From: Balanoglossus misakiensis | Taxonomy: Eukaryota; Animalia; Hemichordata | Length of the DNA stretch: 64,000 bases | Direction of reading: 5' to 3' | NCBI GenBank assembly: GCA_040954595.2 | Contig: CM082585.2 | Coordinates: forward strand, 3,254,902 to 3,318,901 | Shown here: piece by piece, positions 7,601 through 50,776 of the stretch | Numbering within the stretch: the stretch's first letter is position 1 | Layout: each line of letters begins with the position of its first letter | The notes under the pieces: model-generated | Told to the model about the DNA's origin: nothing | What the model saw: the letters and a program-made list of their open reading frames with translations, nothing else | Database searches by the model: none | Position numbers and translations under genes: made by a program

Positions 7601-10600
7601 TCGTGTTCAAATCCAACCTATTATTGCATATGTAGTACAGTATTCCAAGCGGCCCGTGCAATAATAATTCTGGTATTTTTGCGAGCTCATATGCAAATGA
7701 GCAACTAACATAAAATAAGATCCCCAATTTCCTACACAATCGATCTTATCTCTTAAAGTTTATCACCATGTGTTTCATAATCATTTGTAGTTTGTATATA
7801 CCTCCATAGAATTTGCGAAAGGTTTTATTTTACATCCCAAAAAGCTTATTGTTGTTTTAGTTGTGCGCGCGACAATGTGGTATTTTTTACAGCTGATATG
7901 CAAATTAGTAAAAACAAAGACGACCTGTGTCGGAACTATTTTTTTGTTTGTAAATATTGTCGTCTGCTGCTGTGACGAAACCTTTCTATTCCATGGATGA
8001 ACAGTATTACGACTGGACAAACTGCATATATGTTGAAAGTTTAGGGACCGAATTCTATTATCCAGACGAGACAAGTGAAACAAGCCATGATTTATCAGCC
8101 TCGGCAAGTACGGTGGAGAAAAATATGAATATTTCTAGCCCAGGGTCGTCCCTGTCGACAACATCCAGCGCGAGCGCAAGACCGAGATTCGTCGATTTTA
8201 CATCGGAGGACGTAAATACTTTCGTAGGAGACCACAAAAACAAAAACACCGTGTTGAAAACGAAAAGAGAAGTTGCGGTATTTGAAGAATGGAAGGCGAC
8301 CATGACAACAGAAAGTCGGGGTTTGATGGAAATACCGCCTTCTGACCTCGATCCCCTTCTTGCACGGTTTTTTATCGGCGTTCGGAAAAAGAACGGGGAA
8401 GAGTATGAGCCGGACTCGATTTCCAGCTACCAAAAATCTATCGACAGGTGGCTGCGTGATAACAACTACGGCAAGAGCATAATTCGGGACGAAGAGTTCG
8501 CATCAAGTCGTCGTGCCTTAGCAGCAAAACGTAAACAACTGAAAGGCGCCGGGAAGGGCAACTTGCCAAACAAGGCAGAGCCGGTGTCCGCGGAACAGGA
8601 GACGGCGCTACTGAAAGCAGGTCAGCTCGGTGTTCATTCGGCGGTCGCGTTGTTGAATACTATCTGGCTCAACAACACTAAGCTTTTCGGTCTTCGCGGC
8701 AACGATGAACATCATCAAATGGAATGGGGAGACGTGACTTTGCAGGAAGATGAGAACGGCGAATATATCGTGTATAATGAAAGACTCACAAAAACCCGGC
8801 GAGGTGAACCAGGCAATACGCGAAGTTTCGCTCCGAAAGCCTATGCCACCCCTTCCTCTCCTGAAACATGTCCTGTCAGCGTGTACAAGAACTTTGCTTC
8901 GCGACGACCCCAGAAAATGAATACCACTTCCGCACCTTTCTATCTTGGAATCGAGTACGTTCCCTGCACTGTTAACAACGGCATATGGTTTAGAAATCAA
9001 CGAATGGGCATAAATAAACTCCGATCCCTGATGAAAACGATGTCGAAAGCAGCGGGACTGACCGGAAAGTTAAGTAACCACAGCGCTAGAAAGGCCTGTG
9101 TTCAACGCCTCCTCGACGCTGGAGTCCCACCAAATACAACAGCACAACTGAGTGGTCATAAGAATGTATCAAGCCTAAATAGATACGCAGTGGCCAACCA
9201 ATTCCAACAGCGACAGATGAGCGAGATCCTGAGCGGCGCAAAGAAAAGTTTCGATCCGCGACCGTCTTCAAGTGCCACCGATGTTGACAAAACCACCGCC
9301 GACAAGACGTCAACCGATACCAATAATATTGTATCGAGTCAATCTAATGTTTCCGTCCTTACAAACAACGTGAGTGCTTTAAATAACACCCCTCAAGTGC
9401 ACGGTATGTTTGCCAATGCTCAGATTTTTGGCGGAACTTTCAATTTTAGCTTTAATGTCAACAAGTCACCCATCCCTAAACGTCGACGTATTATTTTCCC
9501 TGACTCCGATGACTCAGATTGAACGCAGCTGTAGTTTCGCTCATTTCGGCGAAATGTAATGCCCATTTGATAAGTTTGGAATGTTCGTTTATTACTTGTT
9601 GTTATTTATTGTTCAGTTTAGCTTCGCATTAAATTGTTTATCAAACTTTATTTACATGTATTCGTGTTGTGTTTGACTCGACGATGAATGAAAGTGTGTG
9701 ACCCTGTTATAAATTTGCATATCAATAGCGCTGATGGATTTTAACCAATGAAACGTGACCAAGTAACTTGGGGCAGATCACAAGTGTTTCGCCTATAGTA
9801 TTAATCCGCTGCTATTAACCAGGCCGAGAATTTCGCTAAATTGTGGAACATATGCAATAATAACAGAACGGCACGCCCCCTTGCGGCACTTTGAGGGATA
9901 CGTATGTTATTTTCACTCGTGAGCCGGTGTATCCTGCTGTATTTTCACTCGCTACGCTCGCGAAAATACGGCCGCAGGATACACCGGCTCACTCATGAAA
10001 ATAACATACGTATCCCTCAAAGTGCCGCAAGGGGGCGTGCCGTTCTGTCATATTATTATTTAAATTGAGTTGTGATACCCTCTCTTAGCACAAAAAGCAT
10101 AATTTCAGCCCCAAAATGGTTGCCATAGAAACATGTGATCACTAAATGGATATCATTTTTGTTCTTTTTGAGCCAAAATACCCCTATGGTGAAATTTTTG
10201 TGGAAATCGGACTTATTATTATTAAAATTATTATTTTTATATAATTCTTTATTTAATTATTATTATTACAAGATACCCCTATGGTGAAATCTTTGTGGAA
10301 ATCGAACATATTATTATTTAAATTATTATTTTTATATAATTCTTTATTTAATTATTATTATTATTACCAGTTAAGGGGTTTAAAGAATTCTATAAACAAT
10401 TTATCAATTTAAAGTACCATCATTCCTGATTCTTCAGATTCATAATTTAGCGCTAAAGACATCATTTTTCAAAGTAGCCTATATCTAAAATTGCAGACGT
10501 TTCAACACTTTCGGTTGGAGATTTTCTACATATTCACAAAAAGACCACGGGTATTGTTAACACTATTTCAAACCTTGTTACCCGGTGACTCTGGTGGCGT

Positions 10601-19463: not shown

Positions 19464-19603
19464 GCATAATCCCCGCCTCAGACGGGTATAAACGGGATTT
19501 GGGTACAATTCGAGGAATGTATCACGAGTATATAGAGGAAATTGTACCCAAATCGAGTGTTTACCCGACTGAGGCGGGGGTTATTGCTTTATATTACATC
19601 AAC
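19464..19603 (-). mobile_element. Relic terminal hairpin of a Crypton-like element (element 4)
   Basis: Imperfect palindrome 19464-19587 with CGAG (CTCG on minus) in unpaired segments, followed by TTTAT... as in element 3. The partner end was not found. Confidence 0.6.
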
Positions 19604-27100: not shown

Positions 27101-27441
27101 CGCCTGCTCGACTCGACCTGTTGACTGGCTGCAAGCTGCTGGGGTTGTGCTGCTCGATGCTCCAGCGATGTCGATCGTGACGTTTAACTTGCAATTTTAC
27201 ATGCTCATTTTACATTTAAAACATGTGCTTTATTACCCCATATTTCCCTGTGCTTCAAAAGTCTCCCTCTTTTGGGATTCGGGCATATTTCTGATCGAGA
27301 ACAGGTGATGTTTGTTTGTTTACATAACGAAAATAGTCCGGGCATCCATATTCAACACATGTGTAATAAGGATTCGTCGAGGTCATATACCTGTAGTGTG
27401 ACGTCACACTATAGGGTTAACTGGGTCTATGTATGTGATAA
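24166..27441 (-). mobile_element. Non-autonomous Crypton-like element (element 3), ~1.2 kb plus a nested LINE
   Basis: 19-bp inverted pair 27424-27442 / 24338-24356 abuts a 164-bp hairpin (24171-24334) with six unpaired CGAG (CTCG on minus). No YR ORF. No empty site is available, so the ends are approximate. Confidence 0.75.
24427..26477 (-). mobile_element. 5'-truncated RTEX-like non-LTR retrotransposon (RT plus C-terminal CCHC region)
   Basis: RT motifs QAGFR, FVDFSKAFDSV, GVRQGCMLSP, LLYADD, YKYLG. C-terminus RICRVC...EDEYHFICICPLY. (TTA)n tail. 12-bp TSD AGCACTATTTTA (24415-24426 and 26478-26489). In-frame stop at 25335. Confidence 0.9.
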
Positions 27442-28642: not shown

Positions 28643-30730
28643 TTAAGCTTCCAAAATTCTCATGTTCGAAATAAGTGTGAAATACTTAGTGAGGTTATTA
28701 AAATAATTTTTTTTCAAAAATCATACAGCAGTCATTAACTGAAAGTATTTATTTATTTATTTATTTTTTTATTTATTTATTTTTTTATTTATTTATTTAT
28801 TTATTTATTTGTAAAACACCTTACTAGCCTAAAACTGGTCATTTGCTACTTTTCGACACAGAGCAAAAGCTTTGCTTAGACTGTCGCAACATTTATCAGT
28901 TTGGGTACCAGAATTCACAAGCCGAAATGACAATCACAGCCCAAAATGTTACATCTCAACTTATTTGACGCTAGTTTGCGCGCGCTGGATAGTTTGACAG
29001 ATCACAGAGTCGCTTATTTTGATACCAGGGCGCGTAATAAATTTCGTCGACAGACTGCAACATTTAGATGAAAAATGAGAAGATGTATCAAAGGTTAAAA
29101 CATTCTAGGATAATTAGCAAACTCAATTGCCTAGGGGGCCCTAATCAGATGCCGCCAAAAAGGAAAACGATGTGTCCATTGTGACTGGCAATCTGTCACT
29201 ACTTTAACTCTGATGTCTTCTATCTTTGTACTTATATATCGTCCACTGCCTCAGTTTCCAGCCAAGCACAGAATACAGAATTGTTCGTCAGTTATTTTAT
29301 GTTATTGTTGTTGTTTTGTTATTATCGTCTTTATGCATGTGTGCGATGGGGATAGAGAGAAAAGAAATCGTTGAATAATGTCATTTTTTACAGATTATTA
29401 CTACGCACTTAAAGCTCATCTTCGAAACGGTTACAGACATAAGCTACACGCAAACGTATTAGACACGTGTCAGACAGATATAGGAATATGGAATTGAACT
29501 TTAGGGAACAACACATGCCGTCGTTTGGTTTAAATCAATTGAAATAGTGAAATGTAAGCAAACGAAAGGTTGTCATGTACGGTTTATAGGAATGACTCTT
29601 TCTAACAAGCATCGCGTATCGTGTTCAGTGCTAATATTAACGCTGTAAACGTTAGGGGGCAAATTATAGTTAATACAACAACAGACGGCCCCTATTATTT
29701 TCTTTTTCTTTTTTGTAAAACCCCTGCCTACTCGACTATCATAACAAATCGAAAAGCTTTTGCAAAGAGAAGCATCGCTTGAAAACAACCACGGCAAGTA
29801 ACAAGTCCGCAAACGCACCAAAACCCAACGACACTAAACCGTACGATATCCAAATTTTGGCGGAAAGATGTAATAATACGAGCAGATTGTAAACTCTCGG
29901 CGGTGTGATCTCGGGTACAATCAGTACCATTTAGGCGCTCTAATGCATTTGGCCGCCGGTCATTCCCCAACCACATCTCGACAGTTTGCCGATAGTCGTT
30001 GTCATCACTTTGATGAAATAGGTACGTCGGAGTTTTTCTCGCAGGGTTTCGAGTGCATCATCGAACAAGCGACCCCATATGTGAAAGGGCGCCACCAAGC
30101 TCAGATGGAAGGTTTTTTTGGCAAGCATGCACTCTTCAGGTAGAAGTGTGCGTAGGACGAATATTTAAATATTTTCGAGAAACATGGTCTATAAATGCAT
30201 ACATTTTACAAGCTTTAGTTAACGTGGCCGCTTGCCAACTTGCTTTGTGAAAATGTATAACCATCACCCACGCTTTGAACAGGTTGACCTCTGTCCATAT
30301 ATCTCTTTCTTATCTTCTATGGTGATCGGTGGCAGAGGGAGATATATTGCTCATAGGAGTGTGTTTAGTATACAAGAGAATAGTGCAGTAGCCTTATTTA
30401 AATATTATCAACAATGCACATTGTGAACCCGCCCAAACGTTGGGAATAGTCGACAGCCTTTAAACAGGAACTAAGCGCAAATATTCAACACGGTAAAACT
30501 AACCTTCGAGATCGTACAGAGAAATATCTTACACACAGTGGAGGGACCATGACTTATATTAGTTTAAACGTTAAAAACTGCCGCAGGCAGTTCGGGTTGT
30601 TTGGCCCGTTATGGAGATGTTGAGTGTTCTTATCGTTTGTTCAAGAATGCCGTCACCTGTGCTTCACTTTTAAATAGCCAGGGTTCAGTAGGGTCAGCTA
30701 CCTAGCCACAGGTAGGGAAGGGAAGACAAG

Positions 30731-34366: not shown

Positions 34367-35902
34367 TTGGGCATTAATGCACACAAATTTATGTGAAGCT
34401 AAGTTCAGAGAATCACAATACACCACCTGAAACCACAATTTGTTAATCCAGATTGTACTAAAATTACTCCAGAAATTCGACGTAAACTGAGGTGTAGAAC
34501 ACTTCACGGTCAGAGTGGGTCATATTGGCCAATTTAAAGATGTTTTAACAGGAGACCCGTATTTGTCTCTGCTGATATTAAACATGTAAGTAAACAACAT
34601 TAATAGGAATGCCTTATACATAGACTTGACACCACATAATGTCATAATGGTGTAGGCTCGGGAAGTAAATAGAGTAAAAGTGGAGAATGAGTTGAAATAA
34701 CAGAACACAACAAGAATCACACCCATACAGATTTAAGGCACCGCAGGGTACTTACTGAAATGGACAAAAACCATCACGAACTGCATTGCTGTCAAATTTG
34801 ACAAGACCCGTGAACCAATTAGAGAGTTTGTGTATGCTTATCTTTGACATAGGCAGAGTTGAACCTTTTTGATCAAACGTGAGAATATTTTCAGCAAACG
34901 TTCTCCACAGATATATGCAGGCACAATGTTCGCTTATACATCACGTCATCAAAGCGTGCTCACATGCTTCTTTTCATTGTATTTCAAATTTATTATTAAC
35001 ATTTTAAAGGTCGGTGTCCCCTATTAAAAGTTTTCAAGGTGGTCAGAGAGTGGTTACCTATTGGAGGAATGTTAGTTTAACATAACTATTTATAAACGTC
35101 TGGCCTGGAATTCCTACCTTGGGTCAAACTACGGTTCCTGGCATGTCTCTTGAGGTCAAACTGAATAAGTATTAAGCATTCTTATCTCAAGTGGCAAAAT
35201 AATAAATTTAAATCAGAGCAGCCACGTGATAACACGAAACAAAAATTGTTTCATAGTATTATTCAGGTGTGATGGACTTGACATTGGTACTTTACCCAAC
35301 TTGCCAACTTGCTTGGTGAAAATTTACCACCATCACCCACGCTTTGACAAGGTTGACCTCTGTCCAATTTATTCAAGTTGCAAGATCGTTGCATGTGTAG
35401 GCCTGCGTTTGTACATGTAAATGTATTTCTTAACACGCGTTATATCTCATTCTTATCTTCAATGGTGATCGGTGGCAGAGGGAGATAGATTGGTTATAAG
35501 GGTGTGTTTAGTATACTAGAGAATAGTGCAGTAGCCTTATTTAAATATTATCAACAGTGCACATTGTGAACCCGCCCAAACCTTTGGAATAGTCGACAGC
35601 CTTTAAACAGGAACTAAGCGCAAATATAAGTAAAACTAACTTATGAGATCGTACAGAGAAATAACTTATACACAGTGGAGGGACCGCGACTTATATTAGC
35701 TTAAACGTTAAAACGGACACAGGCAGTTCAGGTTGTTTGTCCCATTATGGAGTCATGACTAAGTGCTGGTAGTCGTTGAGTGTTCTTATCGTTTGTTCAA
35801 GAATGACGTCACTTGTGCTTCACTTTTGAATAGCCAGAGTTCAGTAGGGTCAGCTACCTAGCCACAGGTAGAACATTTGTTGCTGAGGGACGGGAAGACA
35901 AG

Positions 35903-37594: not shown

Positions 37595-38385
37595 TATTAT
37601 CGCTGGTTTCTTAAGGTTGTTCATGCATCGGGGAATCTGCAGCGATGAGGTAACGGGCTCTGACGAGAACAGTGATCCACGGAGACACGTATCTGATTCA
37701 CGTTCATTTATTGTCGAGGATTACTCTAGTACATCAAATACGCCCAATAAAGTACGCGAGGAAGGGAACGGACCCAGTAGCCTGAGGTACTCCCATCTCC
37801 CGTTAGATTATTCTCTTCTTCTTTGGAAACAAAGTTCTCTTATAAGTACTTTTCTCAAGGCGTGGTTAATCATGTAAAATATCACAAATACAATGTGTTA
37901 CAATTTCATTGGGCATCAATTCAACTCTATATGTACCAATTTACATAAAGCGTAATATAACAAAGTCAGTTCGATGACGATTGACAACCAGAGCAATCAG
38001 TTAAACACCAGCTCTCCCTATCTACTTCAAATACATAAAATCAAATACTATCAAATATTGACATTCCCGACACTCTAAAATATCCTTCGGATTGGCTGTC
38101 GGTCATTGACGTAAATCAAAGAAAGACAAAAGTAATTAAAGAAGAAATTATCTCTGTCAAGATCACGACCAAACCAAGGTGATCAAATACAAGGACTAGC
38201 AACCATCATATACAAACACCTCCTCCCACGTATTTTAATAAAGATGTAATTAAACTCATTCGTTGATTGATATTCCCAGGTCTCAATATTAAAGGCATTT
38301 GACCTCTATACACGGAATTACTCATCTTACGCTCTAGATTAGTTGACCCTTAAAATCATATTTGACTTTTATACAGATCGTAACA
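37595..38385 (-). repeat. 3' LTR
   Basis: Direct repeat of 44715-45505; preceded on the minus strand by the PPT. Confidence 0.97.
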
Positions 38386-39476
38386 CTCCCCTCGTTTTAA
38401 AACAATGCGTCCCGCATTGGACACAAATCCCTTAACTAAAAAGATAATACATATAAAAATACAATTTGATAAATCGGTGATCTCTTAAAGAGCAGCACAC
38501 CAAGGGTAGTTTTTCAGTTCCACCCCAAGAATATATTGATGTTCCGTATGATTTTGAAATGTTAGTGTACAATATATACATATAACAAAAGTGAAGTAAA
38601 ATAATTGAAAAAATCAAGTCATGCCTATGAAGTGATCGTCCTAAAAATTATGAAATTACAATACAAAAATTACTACAGAATAAAAGTACATATACAACTT
38701 GATGTAAACTTAAAATAGAATGTGCTCATAAAACCTTCGCACACATATCCACCTACTAATATAAACAATAAAATCGCAACTCCTATAAACCCATAAAACG
38801 TTGTATCCATCATTCAACACAATCTTAATATCTGTTGTCTTATTGACTCAAGAAACACTCTTGCATTCTTTTACATCGAATGATCCGCCGACGTTTCTTA
38901 TTCTCGTCGTTACGTCATATCTGGCAAATTCAATAACGTTAAAAAAGTTAAACTAAAACATTTAAGCGTTTTGTCAAAAATCCACTTTTTACAACTTCGA
39001 AAATGGCATTTTCTTCATTCGAAAATAGGATTTTCTTTGGTTTCTTTGTACATGTACAAACACATAGCCATAAAAAAGAGGCTATTTACACAAACTGGAC
39101 CATTTATTCAGGTCATCAAACGAACGGAAAATTCAACTCACAACTTTTTTCTCTAGTATAAAAATCTCTGTAACTTCAAACTTCATTAGTAATTTCTTTA
39201 TAACTTAAATACATCAATACATGTTAACCAAGCGACACGGGAACCAGGTTGCATAGCACATACAACTAAACTCAGCAAACAAAGGATAATAAAACGTCAT
39301 TCGATAACTTACGCATCATTTAAACGAATCAAGGGACATGCCAATCGTACACTCACTCATACAGGCCGGCCAACACTCATACCTCTCAGTCGTGCTCAAA
39401 TTTTCAATTCACACAACCACGTGTCTCCTTCTTCCGTTTTTTTCTCTGTTACGCTCTTATTTTTCTGTCCGTAGAT

Positions 39477-42400
39477 TTAAATGTGCAAATGTGCTATAAC
39501 CTGTTTCTCTTGGATCTTTACAGGATTTCTCATCAAATACTCTTTTGCAGTTTCATTCAAATTGTCTTCATCCTCCCACGTATTATGTTTGTTTGAATAA
39601 TTCTTCCACTTAACCAAATACTGTAATTTCCCATTTCTATATCGACCCTTTAACACATTTTCTATTTCGTAAAATGGCTCAGAAGCATTATTCTGACAAT
39701 TCCCATTGTTGTCAGTTTCATCGATAGCACTGGGACTTGTCCTTGACGACAAATCTCTCAATCCCAATCCGTCAATTTGATCAGAACCATTTTCTGATTC
39801 TGCATATATTTCTGCTTCTGGACTTTGACATATTTCGGTCCCATTTTCATAATTTGTGGTTTCTGGGACATCGTTTTCTTCACACGACTCATCAGATGAG
39901 GATGAGTCAAACTCAGAGGGGCGCAAATAAGCTCTTTTTAGTCTATTCTCATGTATGACTTTACGATAATTTCTGGTGCTATTTATGAAACGCAACTTAT
40001 AATTAACAGGACTCACCTTTTCAGAAATAATGTAAGGACCTGTCCACTTATGTACGAATTTCTTATTAACTCCTGGTTTAACAGCTGGTGTGTATAAATA
40101 TACAGGATCCCCCACTTTAAGATGTTGTGACCGTTGGATATTTTGATCATAACGGTCCTTCATATTCTGTTGATATCGATCTATATTCTCTTTGGCGATT
40201 TTATGAGCTATCTCCCTTTTAGCAGCTAAATGTTTAAGGTGTGTATCTATATTTCTTGTCCTCCCCTCAACTGGCTGGAATTCAACATCCATGGGCAATG
40301 TGGGATGCCGACCGTATAACAGATAATACGGGCTGAACCCACTGGACTCTTGAGGGCTAACTCTATAAGCGAAAAGCACTGAACTTAGGTACCGATCCCA
40401 ATCTTTCTGTTTACTATCGACAAACATGGACAGCATGTCGACTAGGCAACCGTTGAAACGCTCTGTAAGGCCATTGGTCTGTGGACGATAAGGGGTGGAA
40501 ACTTTCCTCTGAATGTTGAAATATTTGCAAGTTTCACGAACTACTTGGGATAAAAAATTCGATCCCTGATCACTCATCAAAACTCTGGGGCTTCCATAAG
40601 TAGCAATTACTTCATCAAACAAAATCTTAGCAACTGTCTCAGCTCGTGCATTACGTAATGGATATGCTAGTGGGAATTTAGTAAAGTAATCAGTAAGTAC
40701 TAAGATGTATTTATGACCATCATAAGTTCTAGGGAGGGGTCCCACAATATCCATACCCAGTCGGTCCCAGGGTCCTGATACTGGAATAGGTAACAACTTA
40801 GCACGAGTAGTGGGTGTGGCTCTCTTTCGTGTGTGACAATGTGCGCATGTCTTTACGTACATATTAACATCCCGGGGCATCCTTTCCCAAAAATACCTCT
40901 GTCTTAAAACTCCCAACGTTTTAGTGTATCCCAAATGTCCCGCTAAAACACAATCATGAGCCCACCGCAGAACATAATTTCTTAAGGACTTAGGTATCAC
41001 AACCTGTCTAACACAATCTAATTTACCAGCTGATTTCCCCGTGGGTTTCCAAAAATGATACAAAACCCCGTCAACAATGTCGTAATTTGGAGCCATACTA
41101 ACAAATTTACGAGCTAACTTTTGATCAGTAGGTAGCTCATCATTCTCTAAATAATTCAGAAATTTACTCAAATAATTATCTTTTCTCTGTTCTCCCTTCA
41201 TTCGTGATTGTACCTCACTGTCGAATGTGTTATCCACTTCAGTGTTGGAAGCATTTTCCTCCACGTCAGTGTTAGAAGTATCGTTAGAACTGTTAATTAA
41301 AGTCCCATACCCAGGTGTGTCCTCATTATTTGCAGAATTATGAACCTCGGGTTCGGTTTGTTGCCCTGCATGTACATTATTTATACAAGGTGAGTTTATG
41401 GGCTCAGTGTTTACACACTTATCTACCATTGGAAACTGACTGTTAGGCTTGTAATTTATCTCAGGCGCATGCTCTAAATCAGTGACGTCAGACTTGTACC
41501 CCTCACATTGTTGATATGGTCTCCTTGACAACCCGTCAGCATTCATGTGTTTCTTACCAGGTCTATAGATAATTTCGTAATCGTACTGCTGCATGGTCAT
41601 TATCCAACGGCCAATACGCCCCCTCGGTATTTTCTGTTTAAACATGTAAGTCAGATTGGAGTGATCAGTCACTATAGTAACACGGTTGCTACGTACATAG
41701 TGATCACATTGTCGAATAGCATGAATGACGGCCAAAGCTTCCAATTCTGTAATTGAGTAATTTCTTTCGTGACAGTTTAAACTTCGACCCCCATATAAAA
41801 TTACTCGTTCAACACCATTCTGTCGTTGAGCTAAAACAAACCCCAGGGCATGAGTGGAACTATCGGTATAAATTATAAAATTTTCATTCATATCAGGATA
41901 CCCTAGAATTGGTGCATGACACAGAACATGTTTTAATTTCTCGAATGCTTGTTCGCATCGATCATCCCATTCAAATTTCGTGTCCTTTCCCAACAATTTA
42001 TGCAGAGGCCTTGCAATGATCGAGAAATTCTTTATAAACTTTCTATAATAATTGGCCAACCCCAAAAATGATTTCAACTGTGTGACAGTATGAGGACGGG
42101 GATATTCTTTAACAGCTGTTACTTTACTCTCGTCAGCCGCAATTCCATCCTTACTGATAATATGACCCAAAAATTTAACACTCTTTCTCATAAATTGACA
42201 TTTGCTGGGCTTTAATTTCAATCCAGCTTGACGTAACCTGGTTAGGACAGTATCAATGTGTTGTAGATGCTCCTCAAAAGAGCTGCTAAATATAATAATA
42301 TCATCGATATAACATAACACATATTGCCACATAATATTGCGTAACACGTGTTGCATAGTACGCTGAAAACAACTGGGACTATTTCGCAACCCCTGGGCAA

Positions 42401-42782
42401 GTCTCCTGTATTGATATAAACCATGATGTGTGACAAATGCTGTTTTTGGTCTGCTCTCTTCATCTAATTCCAATTGAAAAAATCCTGACTGTAAGTCTAG
42501 CGTCGAAAAATACTGAGGCTTATTCTTGCCCAACATTTCAAGAGATTCGTCAGTTCTAGGCAAGGGAAACGAATCAGGCACTGTAATATTATTTAAATGA
42601 CGAAAATCTGTGCAAAAGCGCCACGAACCATCAGGCTTTTTAACTAAAACTACTGGACTAGCAAACGGTGAAGTAGATGGCTCGATAATATTTTGTTCTA
42701 ACAGCTGATCAACTTGTCGCTCAAGTTCACGCCTTTTCTCAGGCGTTACTCGGTAAGGTGGGCGACGAAACGGGGCAGCACC
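39477..42782 (-). CDS. Gypsy pol: RT, RNase H, integrase, chromodomain
   Basis: LDLQSGFFQ, YIDDII, TDSSTHALG, ELEALA, HHCC zinc finger, DIVGP...SDQG...ERFN, GPY, YEIENVL...YLVKWKNY...NTWE. The frame is open upstream of the listed ORF to ~42782. Confidence 0.95.
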   Translation of the reverse strand, partial: GAAPFRRPPYRVTPEKRRELERQVDQLLEQNIIEPSTSPFASPVVLVKKPDGSWRFCTDFRHLNNITVPDSFPLPRTDESLEMLGKNKPQYFSTLDLQSGFFQLELDEESRPKTAFVTHHGLYQYRRLAQGLRNSPSCFQRTMQHVLRNIMWQYVLCYIDDIIIFSSSFEEHLQHIDTVLTRLRQAGLKLKPSKCQFMRKSVKFLGHIISKDGIAADESKVTAVKEYPRPHTVTQLKSFLGLANYYRKFIKNFSIIARPLHKLLGKDTKFEWDDRCEQAFEKLKHVLCHAPILGYPDMNENFIIYTDSSTHALGFVLAQRQNGVERVILYGGRSLNCHERNYSITELEALAVIHAIRQCDHYVRSNRVTIVTDHSNLTYMFKQKIPRGRIGRWIMTMQQYDYEIIYRPGKKHMNADGLSRRPYQQCEGYKSDVTDLEHAPEINYKPNSQFPMVDKCVNTEPINSPCINNVHAGQQTEPEVHNSANNEDTPGYGTLINSSNDTSNTDVEENASNTEVDNTFDSEVQSRMKGEQRKDNYLSKFLNYLENDELPTDQKLARKFVSMAPNYDIVDGVLYHFWKPTGKSAGKLDCVRQVVIPKSLRNYVLRWAHDCVLAGHLGYTKTLGVLRQRYFWERMPRDVNMYVKTCAHCHTRKRATPTTRAKLLPIPVSGPWDRLGMDIVGPLPRTYDGHKYILVLTDYFTKFPLAYPLRNARAETVAKILFDEVIATYGSPRVLMSDQGSNFLSQVVRETCKYFNIQRKVSTPYRPQTNGLTERFNGCLVDMLSMFVDSKQKDWDRYLSSVLFAYRVSPQESSGFSPYYLLYGRHPTLPMDVEFQPVEGRTRNIDTHLKHLAAKREIAHKIAKENIDRYQQNMKDRYDQNIQRSQHLKVGDPVYLYTPAVKPGVNKKFVHKWTGPYIISEKVSPVNYKLRFINSTRNYRKVIHENRLKRAYLRPSEFDSSSSDESCEENDVPETTNYENGTEICQSPEAEIYAESENGSDQIDGLGLRDLSSRTSPSAIDETDNNGNCQNNASEPFYEIENVLKGRYRNGKLQYLVKWKNYSNKHNTWEDEDNLNETAKEYLMRNPVKIQEKQVIAHLHI

Positions 42783-44637
42783 CTCTATGTTTGATTACAT
42801 CACAGTTGCCTAAACGACCACTAGAATCAACAAAAGCTTCCATATTGTGCAGTAAAACATCTCTAAGCTGTTTACGCTGTGTATTAGTTATCTCTAATTC
42901 ATTAAATTTCAATTGACCCATCAAATAATCCGTCTCTTTCTGTGTACGGGGCCCTTGAGGTGAGACACAATTAACGGCAGTATGATCGAGTGGGATTATT
43001 TGACTATTTCTGGGCAAGGGCGAAAACATCCCAACAACACTGTTTTTCTTAATTTTGACCACAGTATCCAAAGTGTTTATAACTCGCATGGGAAGAAAAT
43101 TCTTATTCGAATAGGCCAACCCCTTAGCTACCAAAATACCCGGGGTTAATCGCGTGCGTTTATCAGAAATACAACCTAAAACTCCAGTAAAATATTTATA
43201 CGGCACATTCACTGGAATAACCATTTCACTTCCAGGTGGAATGTTAACATCAACATTGGTTCTTAACGGTACGTCAGATTGTAATCTTAAAATATTACCC
43301 TTGAAATCAATAACAGCTCTATAACGCTTCATAAAATCAAGTCCCAAAATCAGATTATGCTGAAGAGACTCAACTAAATTAACATACAGTAATACACGCT
43401 TATTCCCAATAAAAGCAGGTATTTTCATAAATCCAAATACCTTCAATTTGTCTTCGTTTGCTGTTTGTACACAATTATATCTGGACTTGAACATCGGATA
43501 ATTCTTAAGAGCGGGAACAAGCTCTAACAACCGAATAGGAGCTACAGTAATATTCGCTCCAGTATCAATTAATGACGTCACCTTTTCATGACATATTGAA
43601 ATTGGAATAACATTCTCATGAAAAGCACACCCATCTTTGTTAACAAAGTTTGTACCACCTTTAACATTATAGGCACCCTCTTTCCCGAGTGCATTTATAC
43701 CCTTCAATGACCTCTTGTCGGACGATCCATCGAAATAAAATTTCCGACCTGGCTTCAAACCATTTCCAGAGAACGCATATTTTGAACAATTTCTAGCTAT
43801 ATGATCGTAACGCCCACAATTAAAACATGCACGGGAATTAAATTGATGATATCGAGGAAAACATTGGGCAGAGTGCCTTGTAAAATTGTATCTGTTCCTC
43901 TTTACCTTATTGTCTATTGTTCGTTCTCTTGCTCTGTAATTCGGCGATTTCTTCTCTCTTTTTGTCGATCGTCCTCGATGATCTGGCGCTCTTGTCTTGG
44001 TCTTCACTTCTTGAACTTGTTTCATTTCGTCAATCCGTTTCGAGATTTGTTGTAAAAGACCCGCATCTGGCTCGTCTGTCCCTGGTAATTCTGCCACGAC
44101 CTCTGCTGTTCGAGCATGTTTGTACGCTGTTTCGAAGTCCTTAGGTGTCATTCCCGCTACGAACTTTAGTATGTCCGGTCTCAGTCCGTTCATGAAGAAG
44201 GATAGTATTTCCTCATCAGTCTTTTTCGCCCTTTCTGCTTTTTCGCATATCAATTCCGCATATTGTTCCACAGTCTGGTCCGGCAGTTGCTTCAGGCGAA
44301 ACAGTTTCTCGTCATACAACCACATCGGACCGCACTTATCAAAACGAGCGAGGAAGACATTTTGCAGTGTCGTCAGATCATTTTTCTTTTCAGCAGACAG
44401 TCTGTAGAACCATCGCTCCGCTTCACCAGTCAAATATAGTCCGATTCCTTTAAGCCGTTTCTCGTCTGACCATTGCTTAAAGTCAGCAAAGTCTAGATAT
44501 TTTTTCCACCATCGGCGTGCATTCTCAGTCTCTGTACCCGAAAAGAAACGTGGGCCTACCTGACCTCCAGCTCTGAGTGTAACCTGTCGTATTTCTGATA
44601 TTTGACTGTTCAAGTCGTTTAGCATCTCGCGATCCAT
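42739..44637 (-). CDS. Gypsy gag-protease, separated from pol by a frameshift near 42785
   Basis: Capsid-like region, zinc knuckle CFNCGRYDHIARNC, protease LIDTGA. Confidence 0.92.
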   Translation of the reverse strand: MDREMLNDLNSQISEIRQVTLRAGGQVGPRFFSGTETENARRWWKKYLDFADFKQWSDEKRLKGIGLYLTGEAERWFYRLSAEKKNDLTTLQNVFLARFDKCGPMWLYDEKLFRLKQLPDQTVEQYAELICEKAERAKKTDEEILSFFMNGLRPDILKFVAGMTPKDFETAYKHARTAEVVAELPGTDEPDAGLLQQISKRIDEMKQVQEVKTKTRAPDHRGRSTKREKKSPNYRARERTIDNKVKRNRYNFTRHSAQCFPRYHQFNSRACFNCGRYDHIARNCSKYAFSGNGLKPGRKFYFDGSSDKRSLKGINALGKEGAYNVKGGTNFVNKDGCAFHENVIPISICHEKVTSLIDTGANITVAPIRLLELVPALKNYPMFKSRYNCVQTANEDKLKVFGFMKIPAFIGNKRVLLYVNLVESLQHNLILGLDFMKRYRAVIDFKGNILRLQSDVPLRTNVDVNIPPGSEMVIPVNVPYKYFTGVLGCISDKRTRLTPGILVAKGLAYSNKNFLPMRVINTLDTVVKIKKNSVVGMFSPLPRNSQIIPLDHTAVNCVSPQGPRTQKETDYLMGQLKFNELEITNTQRKQLRDVLLHNMEAFVDSSGRLGNCDVIKHRGCCPVSSPTLPSNA

Positions 44638-44714: not shown

Positions 44715-45505
44715 TATTATCGCTGGTTTCTTAAGGTTGTTCATGCATCGGGGAATCTGCAGCGATGAGGGAACGGGCTCTGACGAGAACAGTGATCCAC
44801 GGAGACACGTATCTGATTCACGTTCATTTATTGTCGAGGATTACACTAGTACATCAAATACGCCCAATAAAGTACGCGAGGAAGGGAACGGACCCAGTAG
44901 CCTGAGGTACTCCCATCTCCCGTTAGATTATTCTCTTCTTCTTTGGAAACAAAGTTCTCTTATAAGTACTTTTCTCAAGGCGTGGTTAATCATGTAAAAT
45001 ATCACAAGTACAATGTGTTACAATTTCATTGGGCATCAATTCAACTCTATATGTACCAATTTACATAAAGCGTTATATAACAAAGTCAGTTCGATGACGA
45101 TTGACAACCAGAGCAATCAGTTAAACACCAGCTCTCCCTATCTACTTCAAATACATAAAATCAAATACTATCAAATATTGACATTCCCGACACTCTAAAA
45201 TATCCTTCGGATTGGCTGTCGGTCATTGACGTAAATCAAAGAAAGACAAAAGTAATTAAAGAAGAAATTATCTCTGTCAAGATCACGACCAAACCAAGGT
45301 GATCAAATACAAGGACTAGCAACCATCATATACAAACACCTCCTCCCACGTATTTTAATAAAGATGTAATTAAACTCATTCGTTGATTGATATTCCCAGG
45401 TCTCCATATTAAAGGCATTTGACCTCTATACACGGAATTACTCATCTTACGCTCTAGATTAGTTGACCCTTAAAATCATATTTGACTTTTATACAGATCG
45501 TAACA
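44715..45505 (-). repeat. 5' LTR
   Basis: Direct repeat of 37595-38385. Confidence 0.97.
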
Positions 45506-46998
45506 CTGCATTGCTGTCAAATTTGACAAGACCCGTGAACCAATTAGAGAGTTTGTGTATGCTTATCTTTGACATAGGCAGAGTTGAACCTTTTTGATCA
45601 AACGTGACAATATTTTCAGCAAACGTTCTCCACAGATATATGCAGGCACAATGTTCGCTTATACATCACGTCATCAAAGCGTGCTCACATGCTTCTTTTC
45701 ATTGTATTTCAAATTTATTATTAACATTTTAAAGGTCGGTGTCCCCTATTAAAAGTTTTCAAGGTGGTCAGAGAGTGGTTACCTATTGGAGGAATGTTAG
45801 TTTAACATAACTATTTATAAACGTCTGGCCTGGAATTCCTACCTTGGGTCAAACTACGGTTCCTGGCATGTCTCTTTAGGCCAAACTATATAAGTATTAA
45901 GCATTCTTATCTCAAGTGGCAAAATAATAAATTTAAATCAGAGCAGCCACGTATTATTCAGGTGTGATGGACTTGACAGTGGTACTTTACCCAATTTGCC
46001 AACTTGCTTGGTGAAAATTTACCACCATCACCCACGCTTTGACAAGGTTGACCTCTGTCCAATTTATTCAAGTTGGAAAATCGTTGCATGTGTAGGCCTA
46101 CGTTTGTACATGTAAATGTATTTCTTAACACGCGTTATATCTCATTCTTATCTTCTGATCGGTGGCAGAGTGAGATATAATTCTCATAGGGGTGTGTTTA
46201 GTATACTAGAGTATAGTGCAGTGACCTGATTTCAATATTATAAACAGTGCACATTGTGAACCCGCCCAAACTTTGGGAATAATCGACAGCCTTTAAACAG
46301 GAACTAAGCGCAAATATTGAACACGGTAAAACTAACCTACGAGATCGTACAGAGAAATCTCTTATACACAGTGGAGGGACCATGACTTTTATCATATGCT
46401 CATGCTGATATCACCTCCTCCAAGTGACGTTTAACGTGAATATCACCACGTTTAGTGAGAAATATCACCGGCGATATTTAACACTAAACGTCATCATTTC
46501 TTGCGCTTATACCCGGAACTATGTTCATGAAAATGGCGACCTTAGATGTAAACAAACATAACCCTATACAGGGCCCGGTTTCATGAGATTTGACATACCG
46601 GTAGTCAACATCGATATGCATGGAGTTCTGATGGCCACGGACATGTGTTATAAATAAAGGATTTATCTTGGTGATTGATTTGGAAAACAAACGATTATTA
46701 GTTACACACGTAGAAAAAATATGACAACGTCACGTCAACACTGTGCGTCACGCGCGCGAGTAGTTGTCCAGGTGACCGGTCTGTTTACGGTCGTTTACCA
46801 AATAAAGATAACCCGAATATTTTCACAATTATACCTTCTTCAGACTTTTTTTTGTAGTTTTCAGTAAAATAAACGACTACATTTTTTATGGTTACGTTTT
46901 AAAAACAATTCACCACTAAAATGAAAATCCGGTCAATAAAAAGTGGATGCCTATCGAACGTACGGCAAAATTTACTCACTTCCTAAATAGACATTGCA

Positions 46999-48423
46999 AT
47001 GGAAGCATTCAATGACCCAGAGATACAGGAAATTTTCCAACTTGCTGAGTTATTGTGTCAAGATGACACTGATACTGCTGTACCCGAACCAAATCAGCAA
47101 CAACAGCAAAATCAAAATCGGTATGTGGAATTTAATGATGGCGATTTGGACGACTTTGTGGACCAGCAAAAAAAGAAGAATACCGTAAGGAGTACGAACA
47201 CGGCAGTGAAGCAGTTTCAAGAATGGATGTCGAGTATGCGCCCAACAGAAACTCGTCGTATTGTTGATATGCCACCCCAAGATCTGGATAGCCACCTTGC
47301 TGCGTATTTTGTTGGAGCCAGGCAGAAAAATGGTGAGCAGTATGAACCCGATACTTTGACAAGCTATCAGCGGGGAATCGAGCGTTATCTTCAGGACAAC
47401 GGTTACCCGGTCTCGATCATCCGTGGCAATGAGTTCCAGCGCTCCCGAAAATGCCTCTCAGCAAAAAGAGTTGAACTAAAAAAACAGGGACGGGGAAATA
47501 AGCCACAAGCTGCCGAAGTGATTACAGATGAAGAAGAACAACTTTTAATTGAACGAGGATTTGTCGGTCGATCGACTCCCGAAGCGTTGTTCAACGCAGT
47601 TTGGATGAACAACACCAAGATGTTGGGCTTTCGCGGTGGCCAAGAAAACCGGGAATTGAAATGGGGGGATATCAAGCTCAAAAATACGGCCGACCACAAA
47701 GAATATCTCGAATTCAACGAAAGGGAGACTAAGACCAGATTTGGACAAGCTGGTGCAAAACCACGACCCTTCAACCCCAAAATCTTCGCAACTCCCGAGA
47801 AGCCAGACACATGTCCCATAGCCACATACAAGGAGTTCGCTAATCGTCGCCCCGTTGAAATGAATACCCCAGACAGCCCCTTCTACTTGGCAATCAATTA
47901 TTCGCCCTCATCAACCATATGGTTTAAGAAATCTCCAATGGGAAAGAATAAGTTGGCAACAGTCGTCCAGAGTATGAGCGAGAAAGCGGGCATCAGAGGG
48001 AAAAAAACCAATCACAGCATGAGAAAAACAGCCATCACGAAATTGCTGCACGCAGGCATTCCACCGACCCAAGTACAACAGTTATCGGGCCACAGTCAGC
48101 TGCAGTCGGTCAACAACTACGCCACCGCCTCGCTCAGGCAGCAGGAGGAGATGTCAAACATCCTCGCTCCATGTTCATCCAAACAAGTCGAAAATCGGGC
48201 AATTTCTGGTTCCGTCAGTTCAAACACGTGTCAGATGGAAGCGGCGACAACGGGCGGTATATTTAGCGACGCAGTGATATATGGCGGCTCGTTTAATATC
48301 TATGTTTCAAATGCGACGTCAACGGGATCATCATCTATGACACAGCCCCCACCACCGTACAAACGCCGCCGCCGTGCAGTCATTTATGACTCTCCGTCCT
48401 CATCAGAAAATTCCCAGGAATGA
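46999..48423 (+). CDS. Tyrosine recombinase, DUF3504/Crypton type, 474 aa
   Basis: RQKNGEQYEPDT; LGFRGG (R), TKTR (K), NHSMRK (HxxR), SGHSQ (H), NNYA (Y). Clearly homologous to, but diverged from, the ORF at 7993-9522. Confidence 0.92.
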   Translation: MEAFNDPEIQEIFQLAELLCQDDTDTAVPEPNQQQQQNQNRYVEFNDGDLDDFVDQQKKKNTVRSTNTAVKQFQEWMSSMRPTETRRIVDMPPQDLDSHLAAYFVGARQKNGEQYEPDTLTSYQRGIERYLQDNGYPVSIIRGNEFQRSRKCLSAKRVELKKQGRGNKPQAAEVITDEEEQLLIERGFVGRSTPEALFNAVWMNNTKMLGFRGGQENRELKWGDIKLKNTADHKEYLEFNERETKTRFGQAGAKPRPFNPKIFATPEKPDTCPIATYKEFANRRPVEMNTPDSPFYLAINYSPSSTIWFKKSPMGKNKLATVVQSMSEKAGIRGKKTNHSMRKTAITKLLHAGIPPTQVQQLSGHSQLQSVNNYATASLRQQEEMSNILAPCSSKQVENRAISGSVSSNTCQMEAATTGGIFSDAVIYGGSFNIYVSNATSTGSSSMTQPPPPYKRRRRAVIYDSPSSSENSQE

Positions 48424-48900
48424 TCAGACTTTGAGACTCTTTTTGAACTTTGAAATGAATGGCTTTATTAAATTATTTGCAATTTAACTGATGTCATACC
48501 GATTTTAAACATGTTAAATTCATGACGTTCACTTGTTGTTGCACCCCCAAAAAAATGTGTTCGATTCAATTTTCAAACGTTTTGTTGTTTTGCATGATAG
48601 AGAGCGGTTGACCTCCTTGAACAATTTACTATTTAAAGACATCTTTGACTTACCGATGTTGTCGTTTCCCACCGTTATTTAACATCTTTACAGTTATCCT
48701 CATATTTTTATATCACCGCTACGCTACACTTAAAAATGGCGCGTCATGTCAACATCATCAGTCATGAATGAAGCCGATTTACAATGTTAATAAAATATCA
48801 ATGCGCTAAGCGGAATAAAATAATTCATTAAAATTAAAGTGTTCTCGCTTTATTTTTTCATTTTTCTTGTAAATTCCGAAGTTTGAGCATATGATAAATC

Positions 48901-49046
48901 GGTTATCGCCCCATATCCCCTCTTGTTGGGCCATATTTGTGTGGGTTGTGAGCTGCATCACACTCGTCTTCGACTCGTGTGATGCTGCTCACAACCCACA
49001 CTCGCGGCAAATATGGCCCAACAAGAGGGGATATGGGGCGATAACC
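48901..49046 (+). repeat. Terminal hairpin of element 2
   Basis: 39-bp perfect outer stem, one-sided bulge CTCGCGG, T-T mismatch, apical CTCG-TCTTCGA-CTCG. Confidence 0.97.
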
Positions 49047-49155
49047 TCATAATATTAGTTTAAACGTTAAAAACTGCCGCAGGCAGTTCGGGTTGTTTGG
49101 CCCATTATGGAGTTGTTGAGTGTTCTTATCGTTTGTTCAAGAATGACGTCACCTA

Positions 49156-50776
49156 CATGGAAAACCCCGTGATAGCCTACTGCACCACATGTGAGATTCC
49201 TATATGAAGAACATGTACAGCTGCGAAACATCGCGAGCATGCGCACAAAAGTGTCTTACAGGTTGCCGAGGCTGACCAGAATCTCTTGAAATTCCTGGCG
49301 CGAGAACTGAAGCAAGCGCAGCGGACAGTTGTCGCTCGGAAGAAGGTTCGAATAAAACGTTCCAGGACTTGGAATCCTTCAAGGGTGATGTCGAATCACA
49401 GATTGAGCAGCACGCGCAGCAATTCATTGAGGGTTTTTTTCCCAGAAGCAGGTGAAGTTAAAAGGCGAGCAGGAAAGCGTCGTCAAACAACGGCAGCATG
49501 CGATCAAATCACGGCTTGAAATCCCCGAAGATGACAGTCGGTCGCTGACCAGTGCACTGAAGTTGACGGATATGGGGTGAGATCCCCGCCAAAACTAAAA
49601 TATGATTAGTTGCCGCATTATTAGTAGGTGAACAATTTCAAATCGTTCACCTACTAATAATTTAATTAGCACCTAATCATAAAGCTCCTAATAATTCAGC
49701 ACCAAATTTTTCACATACTGATAATTCGGCACCAAATCATAAACCTGCAAATAATTCACCACTAAGTCGTTCACCTGCTAATAAATCGGCACCTAATCAT
49801 AAACCTGCAAATAATTCAGCACCAAATTTTTCACCTACTAATAATGCGGCACCTAATCATAACGCTGCTAATAATTCAGCATCAAATATTTTACCTACTA
49901 ATAATCAGCATCTATGCAAATATAAAATGTTTAGCAAATAATGATAAAAATAGTCAATAATACTAAATAGCAAAAAGCATAAATCGAATTATTTTAGTTT
50001 TGGCGGGGATCTCACCCAATAGACGGAGGGCGTAGTGCAGTCAGCCGGACTACATTGTGGTCTGTCGACCAACAAGGCGGTACATCGGCACGTCAATTAC
50101 CTGCTGATGAAGAGATGCATTTTCACCGATGAAATCCCCACTGTGAGTTTCGTACCAAATTTGGAATTCGTCGAACATGCAGAATCCACATTTTCCTGAC
50201 TGTAAACCGGAAAGACGAGCTGGTAGTTGCAGACGAGGACAGTCACCTGCTGAGAACCTTCGGCCACGACGAGCGCCTCAAACCAGACGGTGTCGTGCTG
50301 ACACGAGACGGGTTCGTCGTCGTCAGCGATTTGCAGAAGACGGCCACTACCTCAGGAAGTACACGCTTGACGGGCGACACGTAGCGACGTGCGGAAAAAG
50401 TGGCAGCGGCCCCGGGGAGTTCAACTGTCCATCCTCGCTGGCAGTAGTAACCAGTCACAACCAGATTCTTGTCTCTGATGGCGATAACAATCGAATCCAC
50501 ATTCTGAACACGGATGGACGCTACGTATCTTCGTTCGGCAGCAATTATTTGAGCGGGTCTGGTGGGATCGAAATGGATCAGGACGACAACGTGTACGTCT
50601 GAGACGCCGCCGCCAAAGTTTTGAGGTTCGACAAACGCGGGAAATTTCTGGAGACAGTCGTCCAAGAAGGTGATATTGTTCCTTTCTACGTCGCGGTCAG
50701 GAGAACAAAACCGGCGTTCCTGGCAATCAGCGAAGGTTGCAACAACGTTGTCAAAGTTGTCACACTGCAAAGGTGA
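49156..50776 (+). pseudogene. TRIM-NHL pseudogene copy 3 (B-box, coiled coil, NHL)
   Basis: AYCTTCEIPI*RTCTAAKHREH (B-box with a Cys-to-stop change), helical region, NHL ILVSDGDNNRIHIL. Stops, frameshifts and a MITE insertion. Confidence 0.8.
49571..50021. mobile_element. IS3EU-like MITE with internal minisatellite
   Basis: 32-bp TIR TATGGGGTGAGATCCCCGCCAAAACTAAAATA (1 mismatch), 6-bp TSD GACGGA, internal ~30-bp repeats (CACCTACTAATAATTCAGCACCAAAT-like). Confidence 0.8.

What the first reader, a model, noticed from the sequence alone, without database searches (positions are those of the whole stretch)
46384..49061. Second, diverged recombinase element repeats the architecture and inserted without a TSD or matching core
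Seen: ends TTATCATATGCTCA...GATAACCTCATA. The internal TGAGCATATGATAA-ATC-GGTTATCG again complements the joined ends with a 2-nt deficit. Both autonomous elements share TTAT, a CATATG near the left end and terminal TCATA. The empty site GACTT|ATATT is restored exactly with no duplication and does not match the predicted circle junction CATA|TTAT. Known: classical YR recombination needs identical 6-8 bp overlaps; integron and Tn916-type reactions do not. Inference: single-strand exchange or heteroduplex-tolerant integration into AT-rich sites. This independently replicates the element 1 observation.
Basis: partly seen in the sequence, partly recalled or inferred. Interest (0 to 1): 0.82.

Follow-up and report, generated by a model that had tools for sequence, protein, structure and literature searches.

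The report
Crypton transposon that inserts one strand
This is an animal Crypton jumping gene that landed without duplicating or matching its target, and its self-pairing ends and the landing sites of related elements suggest that it likely moves as one folded DNA strand, much as bacterial integron cassettes do.

Summary
Confirmed. Window 46389-49051 is a 2,663-bp Crypton with an intact DUF3504 tyrosine recombinase. A 14-nt copy of its left end lies inverted beside a long terminal hairpin, so both ends pair with it (2-nt deficit). Two paralogous empty sites in the window and contigs of two runs show precise insertion without duplication or shared core. Element 1 repeats the layout but does share a 7-bp core with its target. 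In a second genome, 107 of 108 scorable copies (9 families) show the same deficit; only 7 of 82 insertions share 5 bp or more with the target; targets form a recombinase-type dyad, TA-W-N6^W-T-A; none of 123 copies is the product expected from exchange of the other strand. The strand so implicated carries DNA-specific hairpin motifs (GNA loop, tandem G.A pairs). Best reading (0.65, inferred): integron/CTX-like single-strand exchange from a folded donor. Missing terminal repeats in animal Cryptons were reported in 2011; I found no paper on this layout or mechanism. The scan noted the layout before in other genomes (five notes); the target and strand tallies are added here.

The parts
46384..46388 (+). 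Left target flank (GACTT); host-repeat sequence, not element
   Evidence: matches empty paralogues at 30551-30555 and 35688-35692
46389..46402 (+). Left terminus 'A' (14 nt, starts TTATC); predicted recombinase half-site
   Evidence: boundary from empty sites; exact reverse complement of 48884-48897
46448..46491 (.). Small imperfect palindrome near the left end; role unknown
   Evidence: self-BLAST, 86% over 44 nt
46999..48423 (+). Intronless 474-aa DUF3504 tyrosine recombinase ORF; R212, K245, H339, R342, H365 and Y374 present
   Evidence: Pfam DUF3504 1e-22, Phage_integrase 8e-12; alignment; predicted model matches Cre best, Foldseek E 3e-10
48884..48897 (-). Internal complement A' of the left terminus
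48898..48902 (+). 5-nt internal spacer between the GATAA and TTATC half-sites (the joined ends have 7 nt)
   Evidence: sequence; deficit 2; co-fold leaves 5 nt opposite 3 nt unpaired
48901..49046 (.). Long terminal hairpin B'...B; this copy lacks 7 nt of the left arm that most contig depth of the family carries
   Evidence: 7-nt insertion behind 48938 in X1 and X2 (table 4)
48963..48977 (-). Hairpin apex: on the minus strand a GAA triloop closed by C-G, with a CGAG/CGAG block (predicted tandem sheared G.A pairs)
   Evidence: motif chemistry from PMC13037366 and PMC10085684
49040..49051 (+). Right terminus: GATAA half-site plus 7-nt spacer ending TCATA
   Evidence: sequence; boundary from empty sites
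49052..49054 (+). Right target flank ATA, fitting the W-T-A target preference
30551..30560 (+). Empty paralogous site A in the host repeat
35688..35697 (+). Empty paralogous site B in the host repeat
7621..10052 (+). Element 1: same layout, recombinase 41% identical, no long DNA similarity; ends ambiguous over a 7-bp TATTATT core shared with the target

Best explanation
This is a CryptonA-type DNA transposon, inserted precisely with no duplication, whose Cre-like recombinase likely exchanges only one DNA strand, using a folded single-stranded donor. Shown: the intact enzyme, the A...A'B'...B layout, the 2-nt deficit, the precise empty site; in related families, a dyad target (TA-W-N6^W-T-A) and one fixed crossover at the edge of the left-end half-site. 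Inferred: (1) the minus strand, exposed as single-stranded DNA (for example during replication), folds at the GNA/CGAG apex; (2) A' and B' pair with the internal complement and build a two-half-site recombinase substrate with a 7-over-5-nt bubble as its core; (3) one exchange joins A' to B' and releases a single-stranded circle; (4) the folded circle exchanges the same strand with a double-stranded target, needing little or no core homology; (5) replication, not a second exchange, resolves the junction. Every copy then keeps the element's spacer on the right and the target's on the left.
For: Enzyme. Empty site. Deficit of exactly 2 in 107 of 108 scorable copies (123 examined, 15 too weak to score), in 9 of 9 scorable G001 families plus elements 1 and 2. 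Shared core of 5 bp or more in 7 of 82 insertions, none in 26 of 82. Target: +2 T 76 of 82, +3 A 74 of 82, +1 A/T 71 of 82; TA at -9/-8 in 34 of 82 against 9.8% background, p 6e-14. The crossover lies at the phosphate where such enzymes cut the bottom strand (cleavage geometry recalled from Xer/Cre). Reciprocal product 0 of 123. Apex motif: 328 hits against 66 for the reversed control in G001, oriented with the GNA loop on that same strand in 75 of 78 copies where it was found (45 of 123 had no strict apex). Independently of the motif search, 16 of 27 two-by-two mismatches in the stems are GA/GA on that strand and 0 on the other. The recombinase ORF runs either way relative to the ends, so the polarity does not follow transcription. 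Precedent: integron attC and CTX phage (PMC4792948).
Against: No circle, folded intermediate or activity was observed; no circle junction is listed in the X1/X2 contig joints (not proof of absence). The tallies come from another organism's families, not from element 2's family, and copies and families are related. Element 2's own target lacks TA at -9/-8, and element 1 does share a 7-bp core. Three F1 copies have a flipped apex, and in one autonomous copy (L165) the apex points the other way. Single G.T wobbles show no strand bias (17 against 19), and folding energies do not separate the strands. Targets with TA one base further out (7-bp spacing) are also enriched (18 of 82, p 9e-4), and 4 of 86 copies abut another element's end, so 7-bp duplex sites are usable; this weakens the idea that the deficit disables the duplex sites. 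Some spacer-side homology is favoured (-1 matches in 33 of 82 against 17.4 expected). Three of 15 informative empty sites show 2-4 extra bases.
Confidence: 0.65

Rival explanations
1. One strand is exchanged, but from an ordinary double-stranded circle. The hairpin and internal complement serve another step, such as priming second-strand synthesis, protecting a single-stranded copy or binding a regulator.
For: It explains the constant spacer and the missing reciprocal product equally well. GNA mini-hairpins occur at single-strand replication origins (PMC13037366). Strand-biased circularization without folded sites is known in Vibrio SE elements (PMC9345347). 7-bp duplex sites are used as targets.
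Against: It does not explain why A' is fused to the hairpin base in the exact register of the joined ends, with a fixed 2-nt deficit, across sequence-unrelated families.
Confidence: 0.15
2. The element is copied through RNA by a reverse transcriptase borrowed from DIRS-type elements. The internal complement splints the cDNA ends into a circle, as proposed for DIRS, and the recombinase integrates it.
For: The geometry is that of the DIRS ICR (PMC8969392). One strand would be inherited.
Against: No RT is encoded. The ORF runs either way relative to the ends. The apex motifs are far more stable in DNA than in RNA. There is no second long ITR and no poly(A) end.
Confidence: 0.07
3. Tn916/Tn1549-type reaction: both strands are exchanged through mismatched coupling sequences and the heteroduplexes are removed by replication.
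For: It needs no core identity. Tn916 targets are AT-rich stem-loop dyads (PMC12229494). Tn1549 Int is among the structural matches.
Against: It predicts variable, donor-derived bases at one end and both daughter products. The terminal 6-mer is constant and 0 of 123 copies are reciprocal.
Confidence: 0.05
4. The ends belong to a Helentron-like rolling-circle element moved by an HUH enzyme in trans, and the recombinase gene is a passenger.
For: Helentrons and HINEs have subterminal inverted repeats, a 3' stem-loop and no target modification (PMC4067079).
Against: Their 3' palindromes are 5-10 bp and the target is TT or T-rich, whereas these hairpins have long arms (66-73 nt in element 2) and the target is a spaced dyad. 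All 11 long recombinase matches placed in G001 had a hairpin within 1.5 kb, 7 with the strict apex. There is no Rep/helicase ORF in elements 1 or 2.
Confidence: 0.05
5. Classical Crypton model: recombination through an identical 4-8 bp core, with this site altered after insertion.
For: It holds for CryptonF and CryptonS (PMC3212892, PMC9977147). Element 1 shares 7 bp with its target.
Against: Element 2's flanks match two empty paralogues exactly at the junction. Only 7 of 82 related insertions share 5 bp or more.
Confidence: 0.03

Closest known systems
CryptonA DNA transposons (Kojima and Jurka 2011, PMC3212892)
   Same: Single DUF3504 recombinase ORF, about 2-2.7 kb, animal host, many gene-less derivatives. 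That paper already says no terminal repeats were found in animal Cryptons (terminal repeats 'n.d.' for all 8 CryptonA rows of its supplement 1).
   Different: The passages and supplement read describe no terminal hairpin, internal complement, target dyad or mechanism for them.
CryptonF and CryptonS (Goodwin model; active CryptonF-1_cRei, PMC9977147)
   Same: Recombinase-only DNA transposons without a true target duplication.
   Different: They recombine through a short repeat matching the target (CACCG into CAYCG; TATGG). Here most insertions share no such core.
Integron cassettes (attC x attI) and phage CTX (PMC4792948)
   Same: Predicted working principle: folded single strand, one strand exchange, replicative resolution, fixed crossover.
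   Different: Eukaryotic, self-encoded enzyme, dispersed degenerate targets. The site is built from two distant ends plus an internal complement, not from one local palindrome. An I2-like domain was not tested.
DIRS1-type retrotransposons (ITR plus internal complementary region, PMC8969392)
   Same: An internal 3' segment complementary to both termini; tyrosine recombinase; no target duplication.
   Different: No gag, RT or RNase H, no long ITR pair; the ORF can face either way; there is a fixed 2-nt deficit.
Tn916/Tn1549 conjugative transposons (PMC12229494)
   Same: Homology-independent integration into AT-rich dyad targets.
   Different: No variable coupling sequence and no reciprocal product seen here.
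Helentron/HINE elements (PMC4067079)
   Same: Asymmetric subterminal inverted repeat plus 3' hairpin, no target change.
   Different: HUH enzyme, short palindrome, TT target.

Membership tests
Crypton (CryptonA group) | Encodes a tyrosine recombinase only, of the DUF3504 type, with catalytic R-H-R-Y | tested here: met
   one long ORF; R212, K245, H339, R342, H365, Y374
Crypton (CryptonA group) | No RT, no DDE transposase, no GCR1_C domain | tested here: met
   Pfam scan shows only DUF3504, Phage_integrase and a sub-threshold QRICH1 hit
Crypton (CryptonA group) | Interspersed mobile element without target duplication; animal members lack terminal repeats | tested here: met
   empty sites; PMC3212892
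Crypton (CryptonA versus CryptonV) | Phylogenetic placement with Repbase reference elements | not testable with these tools
   no Repbase sequences held; CryptonV appears in 3 papers of the listing and only as a name in the one read
CryptonF/CryptonS (Goodwin model) | 4-6 bp terminal direct repeat identical to the target | tested here: not met
   0 bp for element 2; 5 bp or more in 7 of 82 related insertions; element 1 is an exception with 7 bp
DIRS1-like retrotransposon | Internal region complementary to both termini | tested here: met
DIRS1-like retrotransposon | gag, RT/RNase H and long inverted terminal repeats | tested here: not met
Integron cassette / CTX-type single-strand integration | Donor site recombined as a folded single strand | not testable with these tools
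   only indirect support
Integron cassette / CTX-type single-strand integration | Only one strand exchanged, with replicative resolution | tested here: inconclusive
   genetic signature fits (0 of 123 reciprocal products), but there is no biochemical test
Integron integrase | I2 insertion that binds extrahelical bases | not tested
   the model matches Cre (E 3e-10) better than IntI4 2a3v (E 1e-6); no residue-level comparison was made
Tn916 family | Variable coupling sequence carried from the donor flank | tested here: not met
   constant terminal 6-mer
Helentron/HINE | Rep/helicase partner, short 3' palindrome, TT target | tested here: not met

The most novel reading that the evidence does not exclude
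Animal DUF3504 Cryptons are the first eukaryotic transposons that recombine a folded single DNA strand with a tyrosine recombinase. An internal splint joins both ends into a bubble-cored site (7 nt over 5 nt) that fits a roughly 6-bp target spacer, a GNA/CGAG-capped hairpin marks the strand, and a single exchange inserts DNA at N^WTA sites with no homology requirement and no scar: an integron-like reaction in animals.
Probability: 0.5. Interest if true: 0.88.

Novelty: new variant of a known kind. Interest (0 to 1): 0.72.

Why it matters
How animal Cryptons move without terminal repeats has been open since 2011, and reviews still extend the matching-core model to all Cryptons (PMC13465315, PMC8969392). 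The layout, target dyad and strand rule give defined substrates and a direct test. If right, a reaction known from bacterial integrons and phage CTX also runs in animal genomes. It would suggest where the DIRS internal complementary region came from, let many unclassified hairpin-ended repeats be assigned, and offer a small recombinase that inserts DNA scarlessly with little sequence requirement.

Tried and rejected
No whole genome is held for the window, so element 2's own family could not be tabulated. The two runs that hold it are short-contig assemblies of one sample; they confirm the empty site, but the loose-end table shown (12 rows, 137 not shown) gave no flanks at the termini. A single-protein scan of metagenome contigs gave 2 decayed, truncated loci without usable ends. 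Viral contigs gave nothing in two protein scans and one chance pattern match. L005 is a weak, unrelated hit. The left end of the fourth hairpin element (19466-19603) was not found. Nearest-neighbour folding cannot tell the strands apart, since it has no terms for GNA loops or sheared G.A pairs. G.T wobble polarity showed no bias. Matching of target bases to the internal spacer showed no consistent signal (one of six positions passed). Family F6 (3 copies) was dropped from the target tally because its end lies in an AT run. Considered and rejected: post-insertion mutation of a matching core; an RNA terminator or 3'-UTR role for the hairpin (the ORF faces either way); CATATG as a family-wide motif. 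The strong form of 'the deficit inactivates both duplex sites' is weakened by 7-bp-spaced targets. Literature searches that returned no listing describing this layout or mechanism: (listings; passages read as cited). Repbase Reports and subscription journals are not searched and may hold such a description.
Full report
The element. Window 46389-49051 holds one long ORF (46999-48423, 474 aa) that matches DUF3504 (1e-22) and Phage_integrase (8e-12). In an alignment of 32 sequences (the two window proteins and 30 of the 120 listed homologues), K245, H339, R342 and Y374 are invariant and R212 and H365 nearly so. The predicted model (mean pLDDT 81) matches Cre best (E 3e-10), ahead of Tn1549 Int and IntI4. 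Named homologues come from hemichordates, bivalves and a sea anemone. It is therefore a Crypton of the animal DUF3504 (CryptonA) kind; placement against CryptonV could not be tested.

The ends. The first 14 nt (A) recur as an exact reverse complement (A', 48884-48897) fused to the base of a hairpin at 48901-49046. Read as recombinase half-sites, the joined ends would give GATAA-N7-TTATC and the internal copy is GATAA-N5-TTATC: a 2-nt deficit, also seen in element 1. A co-fold pairs all 14 nt of A and leaves 5 nt opposite 3 nt unpaired at the junction. A third element of the window (minus strand, left end 27441, hairpin 24171-24334, interrupted by a LINE) has a 20-nt-score A/A' match in the same layout.

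The insertion. The element sits in a repeat with two empty copies in the window; both read GACTT|ATATT. One contig each of runs X1 and X2 (one sample) joins 46388 to 49052 with no ambiguity. There is no duplication and no base shared between element end and target. Element 1, by contrast, lies in a TATTATT run and shares 7 bp with its target, so it supports the layout but not the missing core.

A second genome. A scan of genome contigs returned a relative in a 16-Mb bin (G001, via L004) whose contigs look eukaryotic and hold 43 matches to the recombinase profile. I fetched part of it: 60 regions of up to 20 kb and the loci of ten searches. All 11 long recombinase matches that I placed had a hairpin within 1.5 kb, 7 with the strict apex motif, 2 with a degenerate one and 2 without. 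The ORF faces the hairpin in some elements and points away in others. Ten families gave 123 copies with both ends, found with anchors that skip the outer 8 nt so that the termini are read, not imposed. Left ends are sharp at TT(A/G); 100 of 123 right ends carry their family's commonest 6-mer. The deficit is exactly 2 in 107 copies, 3 in one, and unscorable in 15.

Empty sites in G001. 40 of 123 copies had a candidate paralogue. I removed 11 without a close fit, 5 with shared flanks and 5 ambiguous ones in tandem repeats, leaving 19. Four of these only match the end of the same or a tandem element. Of the other 15, 9 are exact, 2 are exact after a 1-nt register shift, 1 has a 10-nt loss at the right end, and 3 have 2-4 extra bases. 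None shows a 5-8 bp duplication.

Target pattern. I dropped 37 of 123 copies (26 with altered termini, 8 sharing a flank, 3 of family F6) and 4 that abut another element's end, leaving 82. The identical core between element and target is 0 bp in 26, at most 2 bp in 49, and 5 bp or more in 7. Targets have T at +2 (76), A at +3 (74), A/T at +1 (71, of which only 31 match the element's own T), and A/T at -9 and -8 (73 each). TA at -9/-8 occurs in 34 against 9.8% background. That is a dyad, TA-W-N6^W-T-A. Bases +5 and +6 follow each family's own left end (label-shuffle p 0.017 and 0.004, uncorrected for the 20 positions tested), as expected if the enzyme reads the target as a half-site. TA at -10/-9 (18 of 82) and -3/-2 (21 of 82) is also enriched, and -1 matches the element's last base in 33 of 82 (17.4 expected). 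So 7-bp spacing is tolerated and a little spacer homology helps without being required. Element 2's own target fits the right half only.

Which strand. Tyrosine recombinases cut each strand at the 5' edge of a 6-8 bp spacer (geometry recalled from Xer and Cre; spacer length in PMC3212892). The one crossover seen is the bottom-strand cut, at the edge of A'. A two-strand exchange through non-matching spacers, resolved by replication as in Tn916 (PMC12229494, passages), would give two daughter types and carry donor bases along. No copy among 123 has the element's spacer on the left and a target spacer on the right; 5 have a spacer-like left flank but keep the spacer on the right, 3 of them being tandem ends. 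Only bottom-strand information appears to be inherited.

The same strand carries single-strand DNA motifs. The apices of elements 1, 2 and 3, found by inverted-repeat search, all read CGAG-stem-GNA-stem-CGAG on that strand. GNA triloops form exceptionally stable DNA mini-hairpins, much weaker in RNA (PMC13037366, passages), and CGAG/CGAG blocks form tandem sheared G.A pairs (PMC10085684, abstract and passages). The motif has 328 hits in G001 against 66 for the reversed control. It points this way in 75 of 78 copies that show it; 3 are flipped and 45 show none by the strict rule. Outside the apex, 16 of 27 two-by-two stem mismatches in 19 families are GA/GA on this strand and none on the other (small families add noise and some are related). 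G.T wobbles show no bias. The CTCG blocks could alternatively be direct-repeat protein sites or relics of hairpin growth.

Mechanism. Most likely the bottom strand folds, the internal complement splints both ends into a bubble-cored site, one exchange releases a single-stranded circle, one exchange with a duplex target inserts it, and replication resolves the junction, as for integron cassettes and CTX phage (PMC4792948, passages). All of these steps are inferred; confidence 0.65. The main rival keeps the one-strand exchange but uses a duplex donor (0.15).

What is known. Kojima and Jurka (PMC3212892; parts 1-2 of 7, passages and supplement 1 read) report no terminal repeats in animal Cryptons, so the missing repeat is not new. 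Passages of PMC13465315, PMC8969392 and PMC9977147 describe the matching-core model and the DIRS ICR, not this layout. Passages of PMC5753468, PMC4157794, PMC4067079 and PMC9345347 were read for comparison. Seven searches listed nothing that describes it; Repbase Reports and subscription journals were outside their reach. Five earlier notes of this scan describe the layout in other genomes; they are unchecked and were not counted as evidence.

Verdict. A real feature in a known superfamily, with an undescribed end design and a strand-specific insertion signature that make an open mechanism testable. New variant of a known kind; interest 0.72.

Noticed in passing
window 24171-27441 (minus): Third element with the same A/A'/hairpin layout and no recombinase ORF found, interrupted by a LINE-like RT element (about 24420-26500) that ends in an (ATT)n tail; its exact right end was not fixed.
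   Followed up: partly
window 19466-19603 (minus): Fourth hairpin with an adjacent A'-like stretch and a different apex; no matching left end within 3 mismatches.
   Followed up: partly
window 39477-44637 (minus), repeats at 37595-38387 and 44715-45507: Ty3/Gypsy LTR retrotransposon with chromodomain; its 793-bp LTRs are 99.4% identical and it sits in the same host repeat just left of element 2.
   Followed up: no
window 58080-59384: 434-aa ORF matching Pfam GT4-conflict (E 2e-31), followed by inverted tandem-repeat arrays at about 59600-61200.
   Followed up: no
window 49571-50021: About 450-bp MITE-like element with 30-bp inverted ends and internal tandem repeats; one X2 contig skips it (49564 to 50022, 6 ambiguous letters).
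   Followed up: no
window 48938: Most contig depth of element 2's family carries 7 extra bases in the left hairpin arm, which would add another GA/GA block on the minus strand; the window copy has lost them.
   Followed up: partly
G001 (L004 and others): The record is titled as a bacterial MAG, but the contigs read look like eukaryotic host DNA (microsatellites, TTAGGG-like runs, many Cryptons); likely bin contamination.
   Followed up: no
L060, L033, L140, L220, L252, L139: Elements often insert at the right end or inside the internal complement or hairpin of other family members, building tandem and nested arrays reminiscent of cassette arrays.
   Followed up: partly
L165:9082-9226, L163:9257-9360: Recombinase-linked hairpins with perfectly symmetric bases and no clear A/A' pair; possibly a sub-lineage with a different end design.
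   Followed up: no
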